Numbered from the stretch's first letter, positions 18,633 to 26,537 are shown. The stretch: DNA of 64,000 nt from Paludibacteraceae bacterium (GCA_045612525.1 JAZKZF010000023.1:14097-78096), one strand, 5' to 3'. Program-made: numbers and translations. Notes: generated from the letters alone by a model not told the origin.

Positions 18633-18682
18633 AAGTTGAGTGATGAATTATAAGTTATGAATTATGAGTTCTATTTTGGGTG

Positions 18683-18690
18683 CAAAGGTA
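18683..18690 (-). promoter_or_regulatory. -7 promoter box TACCTTTG for the aminotransferase gene
   Basis: The plus strand reads CAAAGGTA, about 50 nt upstream of the start at 18632. Confidence 0.55.
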
Positions 18691-19221
18691 GTGAAAATTT
18701 ATAAGATACGCAAATTTTTAGGGTACTATATACGAGTTGATAGAAAAAATTATCTCCTAGCCCTAATCGGGCAGAAATCTTATAAATCTAATTATTATCG
18801 CTTATTCCGCCCTGTTACGCGGTATTCCGTAATAAATTGCCACCGCTCCTTCGTCGAAACTGGCTTGCAACAATGAACTCACCTTCGTTCGTTAGGGTTG
18901 CCGCCGTTTCTCCTCTCCCCACTCGCTCACGAAGCTCGTGGGGGCCCCGATTGGAGCTCGTCGCTGAATCTTCAGTAAAATGTAGCGGAAGCAAAAACTA
19001 AAATGAGATTAGACAAAATTTTTAACGGCTAATTGGACGAATGGAACGAAGAAATGTTTAAGATAATTTATGTTGTATTTTTAAAACAAAAATACGGCAC
19101 AAGTGCCTACAAAAATATATATAAATCAAGAGATAGATTTTATTGGGGTTGAAAGAATGCGCTAGGCGCATTGGCAACCCACACAAAAAGAAGTTGTACG
19201 CCGAGAAGATAATGCATATTA

Positions 19222-19252
19222 TAAAAAAGAGAGTGCCGTAGCGACACTCTCT
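19222..19252 (-). terminator. intrinsic terminator of surface-protein gene 1
   Basis: On the minus strand, the stem AGAGAGTG/CACTCTCT is followed by a T-run. Confidence 0.7.
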
Positions 19253-19279
19253 AAGAATATAACTTGGAATAATTGCGAA

Positions 19280-20407
19280 TTATTCAATCACTTGACCTTG
19301 AGCGTTGAACTTAACGCCGTCCTTCAGGATAACCAATTGACCGTTCTCGAAGAACTTGGTGACGTTTTGGTTAACGGTTACGTTGTCGATAGCAGAAGGA
19401 GTACTTTCGTCTAAGATATAAATTGCAATAGGTTTTTGAGAAGCACTCGCGTAGCAAGAAAATAATGAACTATTTTGATTATATTGCATTACATTGCGAG
19501 TGTTCGTTCCTTGTGCGACAACAGAAGCCACACCATCTGTGATAGTAATTTCCCATGAAGAATTGTCAGACAACTCTTCTTGAGTTTTTAATTGATTGTT
19601 TGAAGAACTAGCTGCATAGAGATAACCTTCACCTGTATAGAATGCGAATGTGCCATCAATATTTCCTTCTTCAAGAGTCAACACTTGTACTTCGTCGTTG
19701 ATAATAATGGTATTGCCTTTTTTAGTAATAGCAACTTGTCCACGGTTATTATTGTTTTGTGTAGTACTCAATGCCATGTCAGACTCACTTGCAGCGATCA
19801 CCACTTGGTTGCCAATTTGTAAGTCAGCTACATCTGTAACTAAAACGAATACATCACCAGATATGGTAGGTTTATCTTCTTCATCTTCACCTTCGCCTGG
19901 TTGGTCATCACCTGGTTGGTCATCACCTGGTTGGTCTTCGCTTTCTCCATAAGATACAGCAACCGATTTTACATACAAAGCACACTTTGCTGATGACTGA
20001 GTCAACTTAACAACTATTTCACCGGTAGCATTGCCTTCGAATGTATATTCTGTAGCTACATTGGTCAGAGCAACTTCTGCTCCAAATGGATTACCACCAA
20101 CTGTCACATTTAATTTAGCTTTAGTATTTGATGCGCCCGAAGCATTAACTACAATCTTTTTTACAGGTTCAGTGATTTCGTCGGTAGATACTTGTAAGTA
20201 AGAAACCTCTTTTTTACCTGTACCATAGTGAATACCTTTTGTATTATCAAAATTGGATTCTGCGGCATCAGATGTAATAGTCCAAGCATTACCTTTGTCA
20301 TCAGTGCCAGCACCATCACATTGAGCAGTGAAGGTCAAAGTAGCAGTTTCTGCAAAACTCATCAAACTAATGAGCAGTGCGCTTAAAAATAAAGTAAACT
20401 TCTTCAT
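19280..20407 (-). CDS. secreted surface protein 1 (signal peptide, two beta-rich modules, acidic DQPG linker, conserved C-terminal tail)
   Basis: 375 aa. The leader MKKFTLFLSALLISLMSFA and the tail AIDNVTVNQNVTKFFENGQLVILKDGVKFNAQGQVIE are shared with the next gene. There is no lipobox Cys. Confidence 0.8.
   Translation of the reverse strand: MKKFTLFLSALLISLMSFAETATLTFTAQCDGAGTDDKGNAWTITSDAAESNFDNTKGIHYGTGKKEVSYLQVSTDEITEPVKKIVVNASGASNTKAKLNVTVGGNPFGAEVALTNVATEYTFEGNATGEIVVKLTQSSAKCALYVKSVAVSYGESEDQPGDDQPGDDQPGEGEDEEDKPTISGDVFVLVTDVADLQIGNQVVIAASESDMALSTTQNNNNRGQVAITKKGNTIIINDEVQVLTLEEGNIDGTFAFYTGEGYLYAASSSNNQLKTQEELSDNSSWEITITDGVASVVAQGTNTRNVMQYNQNSSLFSCYASASQKPIAIYILDESTPSAIDNVTVNQNVTKFFENGQLVILKDGVKFNAQGQVIE
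19896..19936. repeat. 15-bp tandem repeat CCTGGTTGGTCATCA (2 full copies plus a partial third) encoding (D)DQPG
   Basis: Read directly. It is an in-frame acidic linker repeat, DQPGDDQPGDDQPG. Confidence 0.85.
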
Positions 20408-20467
20408 AATTTTTTATTTAAGTAATTTATAAATTTGATTAAATGAGATACAATCACAATCCGTTTG

Positions 20468-20475
20468 CAAAGGTA
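20468..20475 (-). promoter_or_regulatory. -7 promoter box TACCTTTG for surface-protein gene 1
   Basis: The plus strand reads CAAAGGTA. The surrounding sequence ..GTTTGCAAAGGTA.TGCTTTTTTT is duplicated upstream of gene 2. Confidence 0.6.
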
Positions 20476-20513
20476 ATGCTTTTTTTTTATATATACAAAT
20501 AATCTTACTAATT

Positions 20514-20550
20514 TAGTAAAAAAACAAGGAGCCTAAAATAAGACTCCTTG
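20514..20550 (-). terminator. intrinsic terminator of surface-protein gene 2
   Basis: The stem CAAGGAGTC/GGCTCCTTG has one mismatch and is followed by a T-run on the minus strand. Confidence 0.65.
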
Positions 20551-20577
20551 CAAAATTAGATATTATTCAGTGGAATA

Positions 20578-21669
20578 TTATTCGATCACTTGACCTTGAG
20601 CGTTGTAACGAACGCCGTTTTTGATGATAACCAATTGACCGTTCTCGAAGAACTTGGTGATGTTTTGGTTAACGGTTACGTTGTCAACTGCGGTGGTAGA
20701 AGTAGAAAGAATAGTAACTTGACCATCAGCCATCTCTGGAGTGGTATTGTATTTAGTAAGTTTACCAAACAATTGTACCTTGTCTCCTTTTTTAACAGCC
20801 TCAGATACAAAGCAATAATATGCTTCAAAAACTTTACCACCATCTTCTGTATCTGCAATCCAAAAACTTTGCTTTCCAGATTTCCATTCATAAGTGTCAG
20901 TCACATATCCTACAACTACGTAGGTTAGTTCGGTAGGCACATTGTTTCCGCTCACTGTAAGAGCAATCTCTGCTGCTTCAGCACAAGTTACTTTAGTCGC
21001 TTTAGTGAAAGTTTCGACGGTTACTTCACTGGCATTTTCTCCTTTGTAAGCAATGGCTTTAACAGTAGTGGTTTCAGTTATTTCAAATGACTCAGCATAT
21101 ACAAGACTTGCATTAGTTGGTTCTGTACCATCTGTAGTGTAATAAATAGTCGAACCATCAGCAGCAGTAATAGAAACAGTAGTAGATTCAATAAAATCTG
21201 CATCACCTGCAACTGCTGGTGCAACGACATAGTCATCAGCAACCTCACCGTATGTAACTTTTATTGTTTGGATACGACGATGACCATTAGTTCCATCTAC
21301 AGTGAATTTAACAGACTCAGCAATGCCATTCCAGGTTCCAGAAGCATACGCACCATTATCAGTTGTTATCTGGTTTGAATTATCACCAGTACCAAATGTT
21401 AATTCAATTTTTGTCAACTTACCAGAAGTAGTTGCGATCGTAAAATATCCACCCGCATACACACGTACTGCACTACCAGTATTATAATATTTAGGTGTAT
21501 TTTGATTTGTACCTTTATCCAATGTAACAGAAACAGATTCATCTAAAGTAATAGATAGCACTTCCTCTGCATTTTCATAGCCTTGTGCAGAAAGGTCAAT
21601 ATAAACTTCCTTTGCAAAACTCATTGCGCTAATAAGCAGTGCGCTTAAAAATAAAGTAAACTTTTTCAT
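20578..21669 (-). CDS. secreted surface protein 2 (signal peptide, beta-rich module, FN3-associated TIYYTTDGTEPT module, OB-fold-like module, conserved C-terminal tail)
   Basis: 363 aa. The leader and tail are nearly identical to gene 1, while the passenger region is unrelated to gene 1. Confidence 0.8.
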   Translation of the reverse strand: MKKFTLFLSALLISAMSFAKEVYIDLSAQGYENAEEVLSITLDESVSVTLDKGTNQNTPKYYNTGSAVRVYAGGYFTIATTSGKLTKIELTFGTGDNSNQITTDNGAYASGTWNGIAESVKFTVDGTNGHRRIQTIKVTYGEVADDYVVAPAVAGDADFIESTTVSITAADGSTIYYTTDGTEPTNASLVYAESFEITETTTVKAIAYKGENASEVTVETFTKATKVTCAEAAEIALTVSGNNVPTELTYVVVGYVTDTYEWKSGKQSFWIADTEDGGKVFEAYYCFVSEAVKKGDKVQLFGKLTKYNTTPEMADGQVTILSTSTTAVDNVTVNQNITKFFENGQLVIIKNGVRYNAQGQVIE

Positions 21670-21730
21670 AATTTTTTGTTTTGAATGATTTATAAATTAA
21701 GTTAATTGTTTGTCAATTACAATCTGTTTG

Positions 21731-21738
21731 CAAAGGTA
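21731..21738 (-). promoter_or_regulatory. -7 promoter box TACCTTTG for surface-protein gene 2
   Basis: The plus strand reads CAAAGGTA, in the same context as at 20468. Confidence 0.6.
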
Positions 21739-21780
21739 CTGCTTTTTTTTGATATAAACAAATAATATCTGTTTTTTTTT

Positions 21781-21816
21781 ATAAAAATAAAACAAGGAGC
21801 CGTGGTGGCTCCTTGC
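21781..21816 (-). terminator. intrinsic terminator of surface-protein gene 3
   Basis: A perfect stem CAAGGAGCC/GGCTCCTTG is followed by a T-rich run on the minus strand. Confidence 0.7.
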
Positions 21817-21840
21817 TTTAGAAGATATAATCGAAGTTGA

Positions 21841-24800
21841 TTATTTCACAACAGCACCTTGAGCGTTGTATTGAACGCCGTTCTTGATGATGATCAATTG
21901 ACCGTTAACGATAGCCTTAACAGGAGCAACGGTAGAGTCAATGTTATCAAGAGCAGTTGGAACTTCAGGTTCAACAGTTGGGAAAGTGATAACAAGTGTC
22001 TTAGTTGCATATGTCCAAGTGAAGGTGTAATCACCTGCTTCGTCAACAGAAAGAAGCATATTACCAGAGTTGCCTTCCAAACCAGCTACGTCATTAGCAT
22101 CACGAGTAACATGAGCACCGTTAGCAGTAAATTGTCCATCGACATTGATTCCGAAATCATAGTCGCCTACTGTAGAGATAGTGATAACTACAGAAGCAGT
22201 GGCATTATCATCTGCAAGCACAAGAGGTGTGGTGTTAGCCCATCCATCCCAAGCACCTTTGACAGCAATAGCAGGAAGAACAACTACTTCTTCTAACAAC
22301 TCAGCGGTAGCAGTCACCTCTGCAGTCTCAAGATCGAGTGTAAAGGTCACGTTGTAGCGTCCAGATACAGGAATATTGAGAGTAACATTACCCTTCTCTG
22401 GATAAGTAAACCAAGCCCAACTATGATTCACAGCCACTTTGTATTCGATATTACCAGCAGCAAGGGTCACATTCTCTTTTACAAGGAGATAAGTAGTACC
22501 ATCTGCTTGCTCTACCATGTCGTTAGCAGTATTGCTAGGATCCCATTCTGAGCCAAACAAAGATGTAGATGAACCGGTTACAGTGAAAGGAAGATTACTC
22601 AATTCGTCTGCAGTGTACCATCCGTCTATCATATAGAAGTTGTCAGGAGTCCAAACAAGATCATCTGTTTGATTGTCCTCGCCACCTTGACCATTATTGA
22701 AGATGACATTAGTGATTTCACTTACCGCTGGATAAGCAATGCCATATATATCATAGCCAAAGAAAGTGGTTATTGCTTCTAATTGTATACCTGGCCATCC
22801 ATTGTTGCCATCCTCATTCCAAACGTATACCCAAACCTCGTCCCATTCTTTGGTATTGATGAAGTAAACACTCTCGTAAATATAATCGAAGTTAGCTACA
22901 AGAGCGCAGTCTGCGAGCACTTCGAAAGTATATTCAGCGTCAGTAGAAACCTCTTCACCGCCTACAGTCCAATTAACGAATACGTAACCCTCATTAGCAG
23001 TTGCAGTAAAAGTAGCCTCTGCGCCGTGCTCGAACGAACCTCCACCAGTTACAGTACCAGCCTCAGCAAGGTTAGCAGAAACGGTAACAGTGTATGAAGG
23101 CAAGGTCAATGAAACAATGTAGTTGCTATGGTTGAATTCGTATATTGAATTGTACTTCTTCATTGTACCACAAACTACAACTTGAGAACCAACGACAAGA
23201 TCATCAATAGATGTAAACTGTTCTTGGTTTAATCCTAAACCACCATAGCACTCAAATTTATTACCCTCTTCATCTTGGATCCAATATGTAATATTTCCAT
23301 AGTTATCATTGAAACTCTCTACCTCAGAGATTTCACCTTTTACATATACTTGCTTGGTTAAGTCGCTGGTAACGTTATCAATCAAAGCAATTGCTTCTGC
23401 TACAGTATATGCAGTTTCTGGGGTATTGGAAATATCTACTTTAGGCACAGAGTATGCTTTGTACTCAACCAAATAGCAGCCTGCTCCCAATTCGTATGTT
23501 TCACCATATTTAACTAACTTACCACATGCAACCAATGTGTCACCTGCAACGATGTAATCCTCTGTAAATTGAGTATCACCAGCAGCTTCATAGAATTTGT
23601 AGAATTGGAATCCTCCCTCTAATGTGATAGTATATGTGTTGCTATTACTATAGAATTGTGCGGTTTTTACAACACCTTTTACATATACATCTTGGTCATC
23701 ATAGCAGCCACCGTTATATACCTCAATTGCCTCAGCTTCGGTGTAAGGATTAGCTTGGCTATTGTTCAAAGGAAGTTTGATAGTATATGTAGCAGAAGCG
23801 ACAGAGCTTGTAATCTCACCACTAATTGCAATGGCTTTGATGGTTATTTCACCACATTCATCAAGAACGATAGCTTCTGTATATTCTTCACTATCAGCAG
23901 TAGGAGTAGTACCATCTAATGTATAGTAGATTGTTCCTTCTTCAGCAGAAAGAGTAACCTCTTGAGCTTCGGTATATGTACCTTCTGCAAGTGAGAATGT
24001 AGGAGCATCAAGAGTTGGAACCTCTGGAGTTCCACCAGCTGCAGCGTAAGTAACAGTGATTTTTGTAATACGACATGTTCCTCCAAAGGTAATTGTAACA
24101 GCATTTGCAGAACCTGTCCAATTCTTCGAATCGGTCATTGTACCAACATCTGCAGTATGGGTACCTGCCCAGTTATTGCCATCCGCAGTGAATGCAATTG
24201 CAGTAATCACATAGCCAGCTGGAACAGAGATCTGCATATAATGATCTACGTAAACACGAGTTTGGGAATCATTTACATATAAATTGTTACCGCTTCTGGT
24301 GTGAAGAATACTTATATCATCTTGCTTTCCATATAAGGTTTCTGTTGTATTTGCGTTGGTACCTGTGAAACTTGTACCCCAAAAAGCATTATTTGGGACA
24401 ATCTCGTATGTTCCTGCTGTAATTACATTTTCAGTCACATTAATGGTATAACTATCTGTTACAGTTACCTCATCCTCTGTATATGTAACAGTCACTTCTT
24501 TTTCTCCAGCCGTTGACATGTCAGGAGTAGAAACTGAAGTAGGAGTAACCACTTTAGTTTCATCTTCTTGAGCCACGTCATTCTTGGTTACGCTATAGGT
24601 AGCAGTACAAGTTCCGTCAAATTTGAAAATATCACCTGTTTCATAGTCAGTGGTCGCACCTTCAACAGCAATTGACTTAAGGGTCTTAACGATAACATCA
24701 GGTGTTTCACCAGCTTCATAATAGGTAATTACTGCTTTATTGAAGTAAATTGCACCATTAGCAGAAGAAGGACGAGAAATTTCAATAAGGATATCTCCTG

Positions 24801-25218
24801 TATAGTCGTTAGTGTTTTCAACTGCGAATTCTGTACCTCCAGCAGCAGCAGTCTGACTAGTAAATTTACTTGATTCTCCTAATTTATTGCCACCAATATA
24901 TACTTTAATTGTAACGTTGGTATTGGCTTTAGAAGTTCCCCATACTTGAATTTTTTCAATTTTTTTAGAAGAGTAAGAAGATGTTGATAACTTTAAATAT
25001 GACACTGCTTTACTATTGGTGCCCACTTGAATATATGCCTTGTTACTTGTATAGCTACCATCAGATGTGAGTGACCAACTGCCACCTCCACCATCTGTAA
25101 GTGTACCGTTTGAAGTAACACCGCTAGAAATAGACAATGTCGCTGTCTCTCCCCACGCGTTTGTTACGCCGAGGGCGAGCATCGCAAATAACGCGAAAAA
25201 TAGTTTTAAATGTTTCAT
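21841..25218 (-). CDS. large secreted multidomain surface protein 3 (Ig-like, FN3-associated, two OB-fold-like, InlB-B-repeat-like, CBM25/26-like and two X25/CBM-like modules, related C-terminal tail)
   Basis: 1125 aa from MKHLKLFFALFAMLALGVTNAWG, with the start trimmed from 25281. Module calls rest on recognisable sequence patterns, for example VYFINTKEWDEVWVYVWNEDGNNGWPGIQL...VIFNNGQGGEDNQTDDL (starch-binding-module-like) and GTIYYTLDGTTPT. The tail is VNGQLIIIKNGVQYNAQGAVVK. Confidence 0.8.
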   Translation of the reverse strand: MKHLKLFFALFAMLALGVTNAWGETATLSISSGVTSNGTLTDGGGGSWSLTSDGSYTSNKAYIQVGTNSKAVSYLKLSTSSYSSKKIEKIQVWGTSKANTNVTIKVYIGGNKLGESSKFTSQTAAAGGTEFAVENTNDYTGDILIEISRPSSANGAIYFNKAVITYYEAGETPDVIVKTLKSIAVEGATTDYETGDIFKFDGTCTATYSVTKNDVAQEDETKVVTPTSVSTPDMSTAGEKEVTVTYTEDEVTVTDSYTINVTENVITAGTYEIVPNNAFWGTSFTGTNANTTETLYGKQDDISILHTRSGNNLYVNDSQTRVYVDHYMQISVPAGYVITAIAFTADGNNWAGTHTADVGTMTDSKNWTGSANAVTITFGGTCRITKITVTYAAAGGTPEVPTLDAPTFSLAEGTYTEAQEVTLSAEEGTIYYTLDGTTPTADSEEYTEAIVLDECGEITIKAIAISGEITSSVASATYTIKLPLNNSQANPYTEAEAIEVYNGGCYDDQDVYVKGVVKTAQFYSNSNTYTITLEGGFQFYKFYEAAGDTQFTEDYIVAGDTLVACGKLVKYGETYELGAGCYLVEYKAYSVPKVDISNTPETAYTVAEAIALIDNVTSDLTKQVYVKGEISEVESFNDNYGNITYWIQDEEGNKFECYGGLGLNQEQFTSIDDLVVGSQVVVCGTMKKYNSIYEFNHSNYIVSLTLPSYTVTVSANLAEAGTVTGGGSFEHGAEATFTATANEGYVFVNWTVGGEEVSTDAEYTFEVLADCALVANFDYIYESVYFINTKEWDEVWVYVWNEDGNNGWPGIQLEAITTFFGYDIYGIAYPAVSEITNVIFNNGQGGEDNQTDDLVWTPDNFYMIDGWYTADELSNLPFTVTGSSTSLFGSEWDPSNTANDMVEQADGTTYLLVKENVTLAAGNIEYKVAVNHSWAWFTYPEKGNVTLNIPVSGRYNVTFTLDLETAEVTATAELLEEVVVLPAIAVKGAWDGWANTTPLVLADDNATASVVITISTVGDYDFGINVDGQFTANGAHVTRDANDVAGLEGNSGNMLLSVDEAGDYTFTWTYATKTLVITFPTVEPEVPTALDNIDSTVAPVKAIVNGQLIIIKNGVQYNAQGAVVK

Positions 25219-25501
25219 GATTTTTTGTTTTTTGTTAATAATAAAGTTAATTAATATAAATTGTTGTTCAATTCGTTTCACGTATTTGGCTCTTTATGTT
25301 CGCGAAAGTGGCTAAAGCGAAAGTGGCTTCGCTGGCGCTTTACGAATAAAAAAAGGAAATAATAGATTACCTTACCTATCATTTCCCTATCCTATTTCGC
25401 CCAACAATCCTTACACCCTGTAGTGTAAAAATAATCGGCGATATTTGCAAATATTTGCTTCATCAAAAGAGTGTCTTAACCATTTTTCTGAAATTGCGCT
25501 A

Positions 25502-25509
25502 CAAAGGTA
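25502..25509 (-). promoter_or_regulatory. candidate -7 promoter box TACCTTTG for surface-protein gene 3 (implies a leader of about 280 nt)
   Basis: The plus strand reads CAAAGGTA. A second copy of the box sits in the hairpin loop at 25606-25613. Confidence 0.4.
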
Positions 25510-25600
25510 CAAATAAATTTACACTCCACCAAATTTATGATGTACAATTTGCAAATTTTAATCAAAAAGTACAAAATCATAGTTGTAATATAAGCAAATA

Positions 25601-25620
25601 CCCCCTACAAAGGTAGGGGG
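25601..25620 (-). terminator. GC hairpin CCCCCTAC/GTAGGGGG downstream of the SDR gene (possible terminator)
   Basis: It is an 8-bp perfect stem. The downstream run on the minus strand is only moderately T-rich. Confidence 0.4.
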
Positions 25621-25625
25621 AAAGT

Positions 25626-25707
25626 ATTGGATGGTAATTGAGTGGTAACGGAATGGTAACGAAATGGTAACGTGAAAGAATGTAGAAAGGATGTAGAAAG
25701 AATGTAT
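25626..25707. repeat. short-unit arrays (ATGGTAAC-type x4, then GAATGTAGAAAG-type x2-3) abutting the SDR stop codon
   Basis: Read directly: ..GGATGGTAATTGAGTGGTAACGGAATGGTAACGAAATGGTAACG.. then AATGTAGAAAGGATGTAGAAAGAATGTA. Confidence 0.7.
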
Positions 25708-25709
25708 CC

Positions 25710-26537
25710 TTACTTCTGGAATCTTCCAACCAACTTAATCGCCAAGAATACCAACCAATCAGGCGTATGCTTGAGTAATGGTGTGCAGAGGTGGTTGATC
25801 ACGCCAGGCATATCGGCTTTCTTGCCACGGAACATCTTCTTGAGGGCACGTTTGACGAGTTTCTCAGGTGGGATAGCCACGGTCAAGTTCACCGCTAAGC
25901 GGCGCAAGTGAGGTGCTAAGCCAAAGAGTTCGGTATCTACAGCGCCAGGAGTCATCACAGTGATATGCACACCCTTAGGTTTGAATTCATACCAAAGCGA
26001 CTTGGAGAAATTGTAGATAAATGCCTTGGTGGCATTGTAGGTTTGGATGCCAGGCATAGCCATCCATGCAGACATAGACGACATATTGAGGATATAGCCC
26101 TTTTGGCGTGGTTTGCCACAGAGTTTTTGCGCTTGTTCTTCTGCTGTGAGTTGGCGGTTGATCATCTCCTCGCCAAAGAGGCGGGTGAGTTTGGCCACCG
26201 TGATCATATGCAAGTTGAGCATGAGCTCGATGCGCTTCATGCTGGTCTCGCAATAAGGGTTGAAGAAGAAGACGCCAGCGTTGTTGATGAGGATATCCAC
26301 GACAAGGTGGTTGTCCTTGCAGTATTGGAGCAACTGCTCCGCTGCATCTTGCTTGGAGAGGTCGGCATAGAGAGGAATGGTCTTTACGCCATATTGAGTA
26401 GCGAGGTCAGCAGCCACTTGTTGGAGTTCTGCTTCTTGGTTGCTAACCAACAGCAGATCGGTATGATAATCACGCGCGAGTTGGGTGGCATATTGGAGGC
26501 CAATACCCGATGAGGCGCCTGTTACTAAAGCTAACAT
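25710..26537 (-). CDS. short-chain dehydrogenase/reductase (candidate hydroxysteroid dehydrogenase)
   Basis: 275 aa with the Rossmann motif TGASSGIG and the catalytic motif YNATK. It is the last gene of the reductase operon. Confidence 0.85.
   Translation of the reverse strand: MLALVTGASSGIGLQYATQLARDYHTDLLLVSNQEAELQQVAADLATQYGVKTIPLYADLSKQDAAEQLLQYCKDNHLVVDILINNAGVFFFNPYCETSMKRIELMLNLHMITVAKLTRLFGEEMINRQLTAEEQAQKLCGKPRQKGYILNMSSMSAWMAMPGIQTYNATKAFIYNFSKSLWYEFKPKGVHITVMTPGAVDTELFGLAPHLRRLAVNLTVAIPPEKLVKRALKKMFRGKKADMPGVINHLCTPLLKHTPDWLVFLAIKLVGRFQK

What the first reader, a model, noticed from the sequence alone, without database searches (positions are those of the whole stretch)
19222..25620. 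Three-gene locus of secreted surface proteins built as cassettes: shared promoter/5'UTR/signal peptide and shared C-terminal tail/terminator around unrelated passengers
Genes 1 and 2 share near-identical DNA at both ends. At the 5' end this covers the promoter box context (GTTTGCAAAGGTA.TGCTTTTTTT), the leader and the signal peptide MKKFTLFLSALLIS.MSFA. At the 3' end it covers the last roughly 38 codons (AIDNVTVNQN.TKFFENGQLVI.K.GV..NAQGQVIE). Their mature regions, however, are unrelated. Gene 3 carries a diverged version of the tail (VNGQLIIIKNGVQYNAQGAVVK). Its mature N-terminus begins ETATLS, like ETATLT in gene 1. Each gene has its own terminator, and two of these use the same CAAGGAGCC stem. 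The tail is much shorter than a classical T9SS type A C-terminal domain. It could be a variant sorting or anchoring signal, or a recombination handle for swapping passengers.
Basis: partly seen in the sequence, partly recalled or inferred. Interest (0 to 1): 0.62.

Follow-up and report, generated by a model that had tools for sequence, protein, structure and literature searches.

The report
Uncatalogued 37-residue secretion tail, shuffled cargo
Three neighbouring genes of an uncultured gut Paludibacteraceae bacterium encode sugar-binding surface proteins that end in a 37-residue tail; the tail is absent from domain databases, ends about 68 proteins in this genome and over 16,000 protein clusters worldwide, is probably a miniature type IX secretion signal, and sits on genes whose domains are being swapped between species.

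Summary
Genes g1 (19280-20407), g2 (20578-21669) and g3 (21841-25218) lie on the minus strand. Each has its own terminator. g1 and g2 share the promoter box, leader and signal peptide, and their last 111 nt are 89% identical. Their mature parts are unrelated (best E = 2).

The tail is not special to this locus:
- It ends 67-68 signal-peptide proteins in this 77%-complete genome.
- It matches 16,177 representative proteins in public data, always at the C-terminus.
- In genome samples it occurs almost only in one family, and is strongly expanded in one genus.
- No Pfam or NCBIfam model detects it, including both T9SS CTD models.

The genome has SprA, PorU, PorV and PorP. Related passengers in other lineages end in Prevotella-type short T9SS CTDs, longer CTD-like tails, dockerins or membrane anchors. 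A PorU-like cleavage motif (T|A/G-V-D/E-N-V) sits in a disordered linker 37 residues from the end. AlphaFold predicts a three-strand sheet.

Best reading: a new miniature T9SS signal variant, not collinear with known CTDs. Secretion itself is untested.

Cassette exchange is real. One g1 domain is 96-100% identical to a gene in a genome whose neighbouring housekeeping gene is only 85% identical.

The parts
19280..20407 (-). g1: 375-aa secreted protein. Layout: signal peptide, CBM-like beta-sandwich (aa 20-155), acidic Pro/Gly linker (156-183), beta-trefoil lectin-like domain (184-333), disordered linker, three-strand tail.
   Evidence: ORF. No Pfam hit. AF2 mean pLDDT 81.4 with domain limits. 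Foldseek matches to CBM36/CBM61 and to fascin, HA33 and SeviL beta-trefoils.
20578..21669 (-). g2: 363-aa secreted protein. Layout: signal peptide, beta-sandwich N-domain, CHB_HEX_C_1/Fn3_assoc Ig-like domain, OB fold, disordered linker, tail.
   Evidence: Pfam PF13290 and PF13287. AF2 pLDDT 85. OB-fold matches at rmsd 3-4 A.
21841..25218 (-). g3: ~1125-aa secreted multi-module protein. It has a g1-type N-domain, a g2-type block, two OB folds, Flg_new_2, CBM26, pullulanase X25 and a glycogen-binding CBM, then the tail. No catalytic domain was found.
   Evidence: Start ATG read from the sequence and from the translation.
19283..19393 (-). g1 tail: AIDNVTVNQNVTKFFENGQLVILKDGVKFNAQGQVIE (37 aa after the predicted T/S|A cleavage site).
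   Evidence: Tail HMM E 1.5e-18. Strands 349-354, 357-362 and 365-367 at pLDDT 76-78.
20581..20691 (-). g2 tail: AVDNVTVNQNITKFFENGQLVIIKNGVRYNAQGQVIE.
   Evidence: Tail HMM E 7.1e-19. Strands 338-342, 345-350 and 353-356 behind a linker with pLDDT below 53.
21844..21954 (-). g3 tail: ALDNIDSTVAPVKAIVNGQLIIIKNGVQYNAQGAVVK.
   Evidence: Tail HMM E 3.1e-19. It is 81-85% DNA-identical to contig-end copies on C73 and C39.
20351..20407 (-). g1 signal peptide MKKFTLFLSALLISLMSFA (Sec, type I).
21613..21669 (-). g2 signal peptide MKKFTLFLSALLISAMSFA.
25150..25218 (-). g3 signal peptide MKHLKLFFALFAMLALGVTNAWG. It is conserved with the first gene of the array in a related genome (L046, 780-aa gene).
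20464..20475 (-). Promoter box of g1, TACCTTTGCAAA (contains TAnnTTTG, which I know as the Bacteroidota -7 element).
   Evidence: Conserved in the orthologous spacers of L044 and L046. The assignment as a -7 element is my own knowledge.
21727..21738 (-). Promoter box of g2, TACCTTTGCAAA.
19228..19252 (-). g1 intrinsic terminator.
20524..20551 (-). g2 intrinsic terminator (GCAAGGAGTC ... GGCTCCTTGT).
21788..21820 (-). g3 intrinsic terminator (GCAAGGAGCC ... GGCTCCTTG). The same hairpin precedes the second gene in related genomes.
19859..19942 (-). Acidic Pro/Gly-rich linker of g1 (aa 156-183), the recombination breakpoint between the variable N-domain and the exchanged lectin-like domain.
   Evidence: AF2 pLDDT below 30. 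DNA identity to the P0004 gene jumps from 43% to 88-100% here.
19409..19858 (-). Beta-trefoil-like domain cassette of g1, recently exchanged between species.
   Evidence: 92-100% DNA identity to L044, against 85% for the adjacent aminotransferase.

Best explanation
The locus encodes three non-catalytic, glycan-binding cell-surface proteins. They are exported by Sec through type I signal peptides. They then most likely cross the outer membrane through the type IX secretion system.

The proposed signal is a lineage-specific miniature C-terminal signal of about 37 residues. It consists of a disordered linker with a PorU-type cleavage motif (T | A/G-V/I/L-D/E-N-V/I), about 8 residues, an invariant Lys, and a three-strand beta-meander (K-x-I-x-N-G-Q-L-x-I-I-R/K-x-G-x-x-Y-N-x-x-G-x-x-V). 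By analogy with type A CTDs, the meander would bind the PorV shuttle. PorU would then cut at the linker and attach or release the passenger.

In this genus the tail has largely replaced classical CTDs.

The near-identity of the g1 and g2 ends reflects recent paralogy and gene conversion within one sub-family of tail genes. Whole domains are exchanged by recombination at linkers and at the shared ends, within and between species.

Shown: the anatomy, genome-wide and global distribution, presence of the T9SS, substitution by known signals in homologues, and DNA mosaicism.

Inferred: T9SS dependence, PorV binding, PorU cleavage and surface attachment.
For: 1. Location and number. An HMM of the tail finds 67-68 ORFs in this 77%-complete genome, always at the C-terminus. 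60 have Sec-type signal peptides, 4 of the other 7 are cut by contig ends, and only 1 is lipobox-like.
2. Global spread. 16,177 representative proteins match at E <= 1e-3. In all 150 best hits the match ends within 3 residues of the C-terminus.
3. T9SS present. SprA scores 2678 bits and PorU 1039 bits. PorV, directly downstream of PorU, scores 370 bits, and a PorQ-like protein is also present. PorP is found, together with 4-10 classical CTD proteins.
4. Substitution by known signals. Of 215 homologues of the g1 and g2 passengers, 141 end in the tail. Others end in Prevotella-type short CTDs (..YDLTGRRV..GIYIVNGKKVVIK), in longer tails I read as CTD-like (..RGVYIVRCGDKVRKVVR), in dockerins, or in Gram-positive-style membrane anchors. 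P. intermedia short CTDs are experimentally cleaved and glycosylated (PMC11969387).
5. Linker motif. 33 of 67 tails carry T-A/G-V/L/I-D/E-N-V/I 36-44 residues (median 37) from the end, against 0.6% of control windows. This fits the PorU site T/E/D/N|G/A/S (PMC10202324) and the P. intermedia PT/GI motif. By eye, a similar motif precedes long CTDs of this genome and family.
6. Structure. AF2 places the motif in a disordered linker and folds the tail as three strands, the shape reported for P. intermedia short CTDs.
7. Reciprocal counts. Genomes of this genus have 30 to more than 47 tails but only 4-31 classical CTDs.
8. Cargo types. A sample includes BspA-type LRR, peptidase M6, GH16, GHL10 and Omp28. 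LRR proteins and proteases are among the P. intermedia T9SS cargo (PMC11969387), and glycoside hydrolases are known T9SS cargo (PMC10202324).
9. Cassette exchange.
Against: - No experiment links the tail to the T9SS.
- Profile comparison shows no collinear homology. Tail versus Prevotella-type short CTD gives probability 13.5%, with only the linker aligned. Tail versus long CTD gives 4%, with only a motif-B-like Y-N-x-x-G-x-x-V aligned. The control, short versus long CTD, gives 90%.
- The tail lacks motifs D and E after its motif-B-like hairpin. Mutagenesis in P. gingivalis found D and E essential (PMC10202324, PMC11969387).
- Every genome of the family has a T9SS, so co-occurrence cannot discriminate.
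- The genus has no extra PorV paralogue.
- AF2 confidence for the tail is only moderate (pLDDT about 60 in g2, 76-78 in g1).
Confidence: 0.6

Rival explanations
1. The tail is not a T9SS signal. It is a docking or anchoring tag read by a different, unidentified surface receptor (dockerin-like or by beta-strand augmentation). Export across the outer membrane would occur by another route or through vesicles.
For: There is no collinear similarity to any CTD class, and motifs D and E are missing. Homologous passengers in other organisms carry dockerins at the same position. The tail is almost confined to one family, as expected for a private receptor-tag pair.
Against: As far as I know, no route other than the T9SS takes non-lipoprotein, Sec-exported multidomain proteins across the Bacteroidota outer membrane. 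60 of 67 tail proteins have type I signal peptides. The PorU-type linker motif is shared with bona fide long CTDs of the same genome. Classical CTD counts fall where tails rise. No candidate receptor was seen.
Confidence: 0.15
2. The shared ends exist mainly at the DNA level, as homology arms that let passengers be swapped. The peptide itself has no sorting role.
For: The g1/g2 ends are 82-91% identical in DNA around unrelated passengers. The g1 orthologue P0001 carries an almost exactly g2-type tail, differing at one residue. The terminator-promoter-signal-peptide module is conserved across species.
Against: Across 2,211 tail pairs the median DNA identity is 33%, yet the peptide motif is kept. 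16,177 clusters keep it strictly C-terminal. The clearest breakpoint lies at an internal linker, not at the ends. Selection therefore acts on the protein, and recombination is a by-product of similarity.
Confidence: 0.05
3. The tail is an ordinary type A CTD that has diverged so far that the models miss it. The locus is then simply three T9SS cargo paralogues with nothing mechanistically new.
For: The linker motif and spacing to the first Lys-led strand resemble those of long CTDs. The Y-N-x-x-G-x-x-V hairpin resembles motif B. Prevotella short CTDs are also missed by Pfam annotation.
Against: The Prevotella short CTD still aligns to long CTDs at 90% probability, while the tail does not (4% and 13.5%). 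The tail ends where motif B would be, so the D and E half is absent rather than diverged. It has 37 residues and 3 strands against ~70-90 residues (my long-CTD alignment) and 7 strands (literature).
Confidence: 0.15

Closest known systems
'Short' type A CTDs of Prevotella intermedia (Ye, Veith et al. 2025, Open Biol, PMC11969387)
   Same: Both are miniature C-terminal signals (there 40-55 aa, here about 37). Both are predicted as a single three-strand sheet behind a flexible linker, with a T|G/A-hydrophobic cleavage motif. Both coexist with long CTDs in one genome and sit on many unrelated cargo proteins. Homologues of g1 and g2 in other Bacteroidales carry exactly this Prevotella-type signal where g1 and g2 carry the tail.
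   Different: The motif order B - D (GxY/N-I) - E (K/R) is absent. hhalign gives 13.5% probability, with only the linker aligned. The tail HMM does not hit Prevotella-type CTDs, and the reverse search finds no overlap. The tail is even shorter, and it is unproven experimentally.
T9SS type A CTD (PF18962 / TIGR04183)
   Same: C-terminal position on Sec-exported cargo in a T9SS-positive Bacteroidota genome. A similar upstream linker and cleavage motif, and a motif-B-like Y-[ND]-x-x-G-x-x-V hairpin.
   Different: No HMM hit in 43 tails at E <= 10. 3 strands rather than a 7-strand Ig-like sandwich. No motifs D or E. About half the length.
T9SS type B (TIGR04131 / PF13585) and type C (ChiA-type) CTDs
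   Same: They are alternative, non-type-A T9SS signals, and so are precedent for several signal classes on one machine (PMC10202324).
   Different: Both are about 100 aa or longer. Type B cargo genes pair with PorP/SprF genes, whereas this genome has a single PorP. There is no sequence match.
Dockerin modules of cellulosomal proteins (PF00404)
   Same: A short C-terminal module appended to highly modular, domain-shuffled glycan-binding or glycan-degrading proteins. Dockerins replace the tail in some homologues (P0118, P0192, P0201).
   Different: Dockerins are Ca-binding helical repeats that bind cohesins. The tail is a beta-meander with no Pfam dockerin match.

Membership tests
T9SS type A CTD (PF18962 / TIGR04183) | Scores above threshold with the family HMM | tested here: not met
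   The three whole proteins give no hit at E <= 1. None of 43 isolated tails hits at E <= 10 in Pfam or NCBIfam. The same model finds 4-10 other proteins in this genome.
T9SS type A CTD (PF18962 / TIGR04183) | Conserved motifs B, D and E in that order, with a basic motif E at the extreme C-terminus | tested here: not met
   hhalign of the tail against 20 long CTDs gives probability 4%, with only a 10-column motif-B-like match. The tail ends directly after that hairpin.
T9SS type A CTD (PF18962 / TIGR04183) | Seven-strand Ig-like beta-sandwich; my alignment of long CTDs from this family spans ~76-90 residues | tested here: not met
   AF2 gives three short strands over about 20-25 residues.
T9SS type A CTD (PF18962 / TIGR04183) | C-terminal position on Sec-signal proteins in a genome that encodes the T9SS core | tested here: met
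   (position and signal peptides). (SprA, PorU, PorV, PorP).
T9SS type A CTD (PF18962 / TIGR04183) | Secretion depends on the T9SS, and the CTD is removed by PorU | not testable with these tools
   This needs mutants or proteomics. Only a PorU-type motif is seen, in 33 of 67 tails.
Short type A CTD of the Prevotella intermedia type | 40-55 residues from cleavage site to C-terminus, as a single three-strand sheet behind a flexible linker | tested here: met
   36-44 residues, median 37, so slightly shorter. Three strands behind a linker with pLDDT below 53.
Short type A CTD of the Prevotella intermedia type | Cleavage-site motif of the type PT|GI, with a conserved hydrophobic residue at +2 | tested here: met
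   T at -1 in 27 of 33, A or G at +1 in 24 of 33, and V, L or I at +2 in 32 of 33 motif-bearing tails. The motif occurs in 0.6% of control windows.
Short type A CTD of the Prevotella intermedia type | Motif B (Y..G plus a basic residue), then motif D (GxY/N-I), then motif E (K/R), collinear with long CTDs | tested here: not met
   Tail versus Prevotella-type short CTDs gives probability 13.5%, linker only. The positive control, short versus long CTDs, gives 90% at E 1.4e-6.
T9SS type B CTD (TIGR04131 / PF13585) | HMM match, and cargo genes paired with PorP/SprF-family genes | tested here: not met
   No hit. There is a single PorP-family gene in the genome against 67 tail genes.
Dockerin (PF00404) | HMM match to the duplicated Ca-binding helical repeat | tested here: not met
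   No PF00404 hit among 43 tails. The predicted structure is all-beta.

The most novel reading that the evidence does not exclude
The tail is the address label of a surface-sorting or docking pathway that is distinct from canonical CTD recognition. One version is a private receptor-tag system unrelated to PorV. Another is a T9SS entry route that needs neither motif D nor motif E. Either way it arose within Paludibacteraceae and displaced type A CTDs on most of the secretome of one gut genus.
Probability: 0.15. Interest if true: 0.85.

Novelty: new variant of a known kind. Interest (0 to 1): 0.62.

Why it matters
Standard domain models (Pfam and NCBIfam, including both T9SS CTD models) miss this tail. 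The predicted secreted and surface proteome of an abundant group of uncultured gut and rumen Paludibacteraceae is therefore under-counted several-fold. In this genome there are about 67 tail proteins against about 10 recognisable CTD proteins.

If the tail is T9SS-dependent, a 37-residue three-strand element without motifs D and E would be enough for targeting. That would narrow what the translocon and PorV actually recognise, and it would give a very small export tag for engineering.

The locus also shows glycan-binding surface proteins being rebuilt by exchange of whole domains between species. This bears on how gut Bacteroidales diversify their substrate-binding surfaces.

Tried and rejected
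- Pfam and NCBIfam on whole proteins and on 43 isolated tails gave no CTD, dockerin or other meaningful family.
- Profile-profile comparison with short and long CTDs gave only local, non-significant matches.
- I looked for an extra PorV paralogue that could serve the tail. There is none: 2 family members, as in other genera.
- I looked for type-B-like pairing with PorP/SprF. There is only one PorP gene.
- I looked for a tail remnant or pseudogene in the 647-nt gap between g1 and the aminotransferase gene and found none.
- Rfam on the locus gave only a chance sub-threshold SmY hit.
- The sigma-70 promoter scan was uninformative: 23 sites found against 21.4 expected. My own knowledge is that Bacteroidota promoters differ from this consensus.
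- Literature searches for the tail or for the T9SS in Paludibacteraceae found nothing specific.
- The supplementary alignments of the P. intermedia paper are not held. I therefore built the short-CTD profile from Prevotella-type tails found among the homologues.
- I considered a circular-permutation or reversed-order relation to the Prevotella short CTD by eye. I did not pursue it, because the strand count does not fit a simple permutation.
Full report
**Anatomy**

The region holds three minus-strand genes, transcribed g3 -> g2 -> g1.
- g3 is at 21841-25218, with its most likely start at the ATG encoding MKHLKLFF.
- g2 is at 20578-21669.
- g1 is at 19280-20407.

Each gene ends in its own hairpin-plus-T-run terminator, at 21788-21820, 20524-20551 and 19228-19252. 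g1 and g2 are each preceded by TACCTTTGCAAA (20464-20475 and 21727-21738). This contains the TAnnTTTG pattern that I know as the Bacteroidota -7 promoter element.

The locus is AT-rich, at 36-41% G+C against about 45% for the window.

**Check of the observation**

The repeat finder gives a 109-nt repeat over the 3' ends, with g1/g2 91% identical and g3 62%. It gives 69 nt at 90% over the signal peptide and ribosome-binding region, plus 118 nt at 75% further upstream.

I placed this against the genome background. Among 2,211 pairs of the 67 tail-coding 3' ends in this genome, median identity is 33% and the 99th percentile is 62%. The g1/g2 pair, at 89%, ranks second. Only 2 synonymous differences occur in 36 codons. 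The shared ends are therefore recent common DNA, not just a shared peptide.

With the signal peptide and tail removed, g1 and g2 have no detectable similarity (best E = 2.0). However, g1's N-domain matches g3's (E 1e-13), and the g2 passenger matches g3 residues ~315-581 (E 7e-15).

**The tail is genome-wide and global**

A regular expression and then an HMM built from the hits find 67-68 ORFs ending in the tail in this 1.81-Mb, 77%-complete assembly. The match is always at the C-terminus.
- Sixty of 67 have Sec-type signal peptides.
- Four of the other seven are cut by contig ends.
- Only one looks like a lipoprotein.
- About half lie in tandem arrays of 2-8 genes.

The consensus is T-[AG]-[VIL]-[DE]-N-[VI], about 8 residues, then K-x-I-x-N-G-Q-L-x-I-I-[RK]-x-G-x-x-Y-N-x-x-G-x-x-V-(K). 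Lys22 and Gly42 (numbered in the first sequence) are invariant.

The profile was searched against 1.84 billion representative proteins. It gives 16,177 matches at E <= 1e-3 and 1,584 at E <= 1e-10. All 150 best matches end within three residues of the C-terminus.

**No catalogued family**

None of 43 tails hits PF18962, TIGR04183, TIGR04131, dockerin or any other meaningful family at E <= 10. The whole proteins give none either. NCBI names for homologues are 'chitobiase/beta-hexosaminidase C-terminal domain-containing' or 'hypothetical', from Paludibacteraceae MAGs. Literature searches found nothing on such a tail.

**Phyletic pattern**

- In 301 Bacteroidales genomes (202 genera), only the three genomes of the window's genus have many matches. 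Two other genomes have one each.
- In 301 genomes across the phylum (143 genera), only that genus matches, apart from one marginal hit.
- Within the family (151 genomes, 33 genera), all 8 genomes of the genus have 30 to more than 47 matches, where 47 is the scoring cap (43-91 first-look candidates). Thirteen other genera have 1-10.
- Classical TIGR04183 CTDs occur in all 151 genomes.

Tails and classical CTDs thus vary reciprocally. Genome size and the scoring caps partly confound this comparison.

**T9SS context**

The genome encodes:
- SprA (C62, 2678 bits);
- PorU (C55:1473-4790, 1039 bits), which itself carries a classical CTD;
- PorV, directly downstream of PorU (C55:212-1303, 370 bits);
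- a PorQ-like protein;
- one PorP/SprF gene.

Home-made HMMs find about 6 long CTDs and 1-3 Prevotella-type short CTDs in the genome. Neither set overlaps the 67 tails.

**Key comparative evidence**

The g1 and g2 passengers have more than 1,100 and more than 660 homologues respectively. Among the 215 listed, 141 end in the tail. The rest end in one of the following, or are truncated:
- the Prevotella-type short CTD (..V-Y-Y-D-L-T-G-R-R-V..G-I-Y-I-V-N-G-K-K-V-V-I-K; for example P0055, P0066, P0083, P0089);
- a longer tail that I read by eye as a medium-length CTD (..RGVYIVRCGDKVRKVVR);
- dockerins (PF00404; P0118, P0192, P0201);
- Gram-positive-type C-terminal membrane anchors (P0073, P0082).

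The tail therefore occupies the slot that each lineage fills with its own surface-targeting signal. In P. intermedia, both short (40-55 aa, three-strand) and long CTDs are cleaved and C-terminally glycosylated. That species was described as the only one reported to have both (PMC11969387).

**Relation to known CTDs**

- hhalign of the tail profile against 15 Prevotella-type short CTDs gives 13.5% probability, aligning only the linker motif.
- Against 20 long CTDs of the family it gives 4%, aligning only Y-N-x-x-G-x-x-V to motif B.
- The control, short against long CTDs, gives 90% (E 1.4e-6), with motifs B and D collinear.

The tail is therefore not a collinear member of type A. It ends where motif B would lie, and it lacks motifs D and E, which were found essential in P. 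gingivalis (PMC10202324).

The linker motif is present in 33 of 67 tails, 36-44 residues (median 37) from the end, against 0.6% of control windows. It fits the PorU site T/E/D/N|G/A/S (PMC10202324). By eye, a similar motif also precedes the long CTDs of this genome and family.

AF2 models give the following:
- g2: pLDDT 85, linker 322-337 at pLDDT below 53, tail strands at 338-342, 345-350 and 353-356.
- g1: pLDDT 81, linker 335-347 at pLDDT below 50, tail strands at 349-354, 357-362 and 365-367 with pLDDT 76-78.

**What the passengers are**

- g1 is a CBM-like beta-sandwich plus a beta-trefoil lectin-like domain. Foldseek matches include CBM36, CBM61, fascin, HA33 and SeviL.
- g2 is a beta-sandwich, a CHB_HEX_C_1 Ig-like domain and an OB fold.
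- g3 adds CBM26, pullulanase X25 and a glycogen-binding CBM.

None has a catalytic domain. I read them as glycan-binding surface proteins.

Other tail-bearing proteins in the genome include BspA-type LRR, peptidase M6, GH16, GHL10 and Omp28. LRR proteins and proteases are among the P. intermedia T9SS cargo (PMC11969387), and glycoside hydrolases are known T9SS cargo (PMC10202324).

**Cassette exchange**

The syntenic site next to the aminotransferase gene differs between related genomes.
- One has a 473-aa gene plus P0004. P0004 is g1 with a different N-domain.
- Another has a 780-aa gene plus P0006, which carries the g1 modules, CHB_HEX, an OB fold and the tail in one protein.

The module of terminator, promoter box, leader and MKKFTLFLSALLIS is conserved in those genomes. 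So is the g3-type leader and signal peptide.

I compared g1 with the P0004 gene in 60-nt windows:
- DNA identity is 32-52% across the N-domain.
- It then jumps at the acidic linker to 88-100% across the lectin-like domain, with three consecutive windows at 100%.
- It falls to 28-40% downstream of the gene.

The adjacent aminotransferase genes are only 85% identical. That segment was therefore exchanged recently between lineages. In addition, the g1 orthologue P0001 carries an almost exactly g2-type tail, differing at one residue.

Recombination is real. It uses internal linkers as well as the shared ends, and the tail's conservation is at the protein level.

**Verdict**

The tail is most likely a lineage-specific miniature T9SS signal (confidence 0.6). 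Rivals are:
- a non-T9SS docking tag (0.15);
- a merely diverged type A CTD with nothing new (0.15);
- a DNA-level recombination handle as the primary role (0.05).

Earlier AI notes from this scan describe a 38-residue uncatalogued tail in gut and rumen Bacteroidales, and short three-strand CTDs elsewhere. I treated these as leads only.

Noticed in passing
P0192, P0201, P0202, P0208-P0215 (homologues of g2): Close homologues of the g2 N-domain have Bacteroidota-style signal peptides (MKK..ALFALAMLTMTAWA) but end in type I dockerin repeats (PF00404). This suggests cohesin-dockerin-type assembly in organisms that look like Bacteroidales rather than Clostridia.
   Followed up: no
G000 contigs C73:34945-35232 and C39:2-289 (not in the window): Two contigs end inside near-identical copies (93% DNA identity to each other, 81-85% to g3) of a g3-type tail gene. 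The assembly breaks in these repeats, so the number of tail genes is probably under-counted.
   Followed up: partly
window 25219-25620 (minus strand): g3 has a long leader. The only TAnnTTTG-type box I saw (TACCTTTG, 25502-25509) lies about 285 nt upstream of the ATG. A terminator-like hairpin sits at 25353-25388 inside the leader. The proximal leader, including the 3' half of that hairpin and its T-run, aligns with the leader of the 780-aa gene of L046, so it could be an attenuator or regulatory RNA. There is no Rfam match.
   Followed up: partly
G000:C55:212-1303 and PorV genes of the family: PorV of this genus scores 366-374 bits with the PorV-family model. This is among the lowest in the family, where most score 380-450 bits. 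Genera that also carry some tails (g209, g217, g219) score similarly low. This could be phylogeny or co-evolution with the tail.
   Followed up: no
window 18633-19279: A 647-nt stretch between g1 and the aminotransferase gene has no ORF and no tail remnant in any frame. The same spacer is 148-486 nt in the related genomes (L044 148 nt, L046 337 nt, L047/L048 486 nt).
   Followed up: partly
window 20001-26000: The locus has 36-41% G+C against 44-51% in the flanks. This is consistent with DNA that moves between lineages, or with the composition of the repeated linkers and Asn/Thr-rich domains.
   Followed up: no
L005 (G128:C18) and L006 (G075:C12): Two Bacteroidales genomes outside the family each have a single protein with a tail-like K-x-L-Q-[ND]-G-Q-[IL]-x-I-x-K-x-x-x-x-Y-N-x-x-G-Q motif, followed by 7-11 extra residues. 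These could be distant relatives, or cases of transfer of the tail.
   Followed up: no
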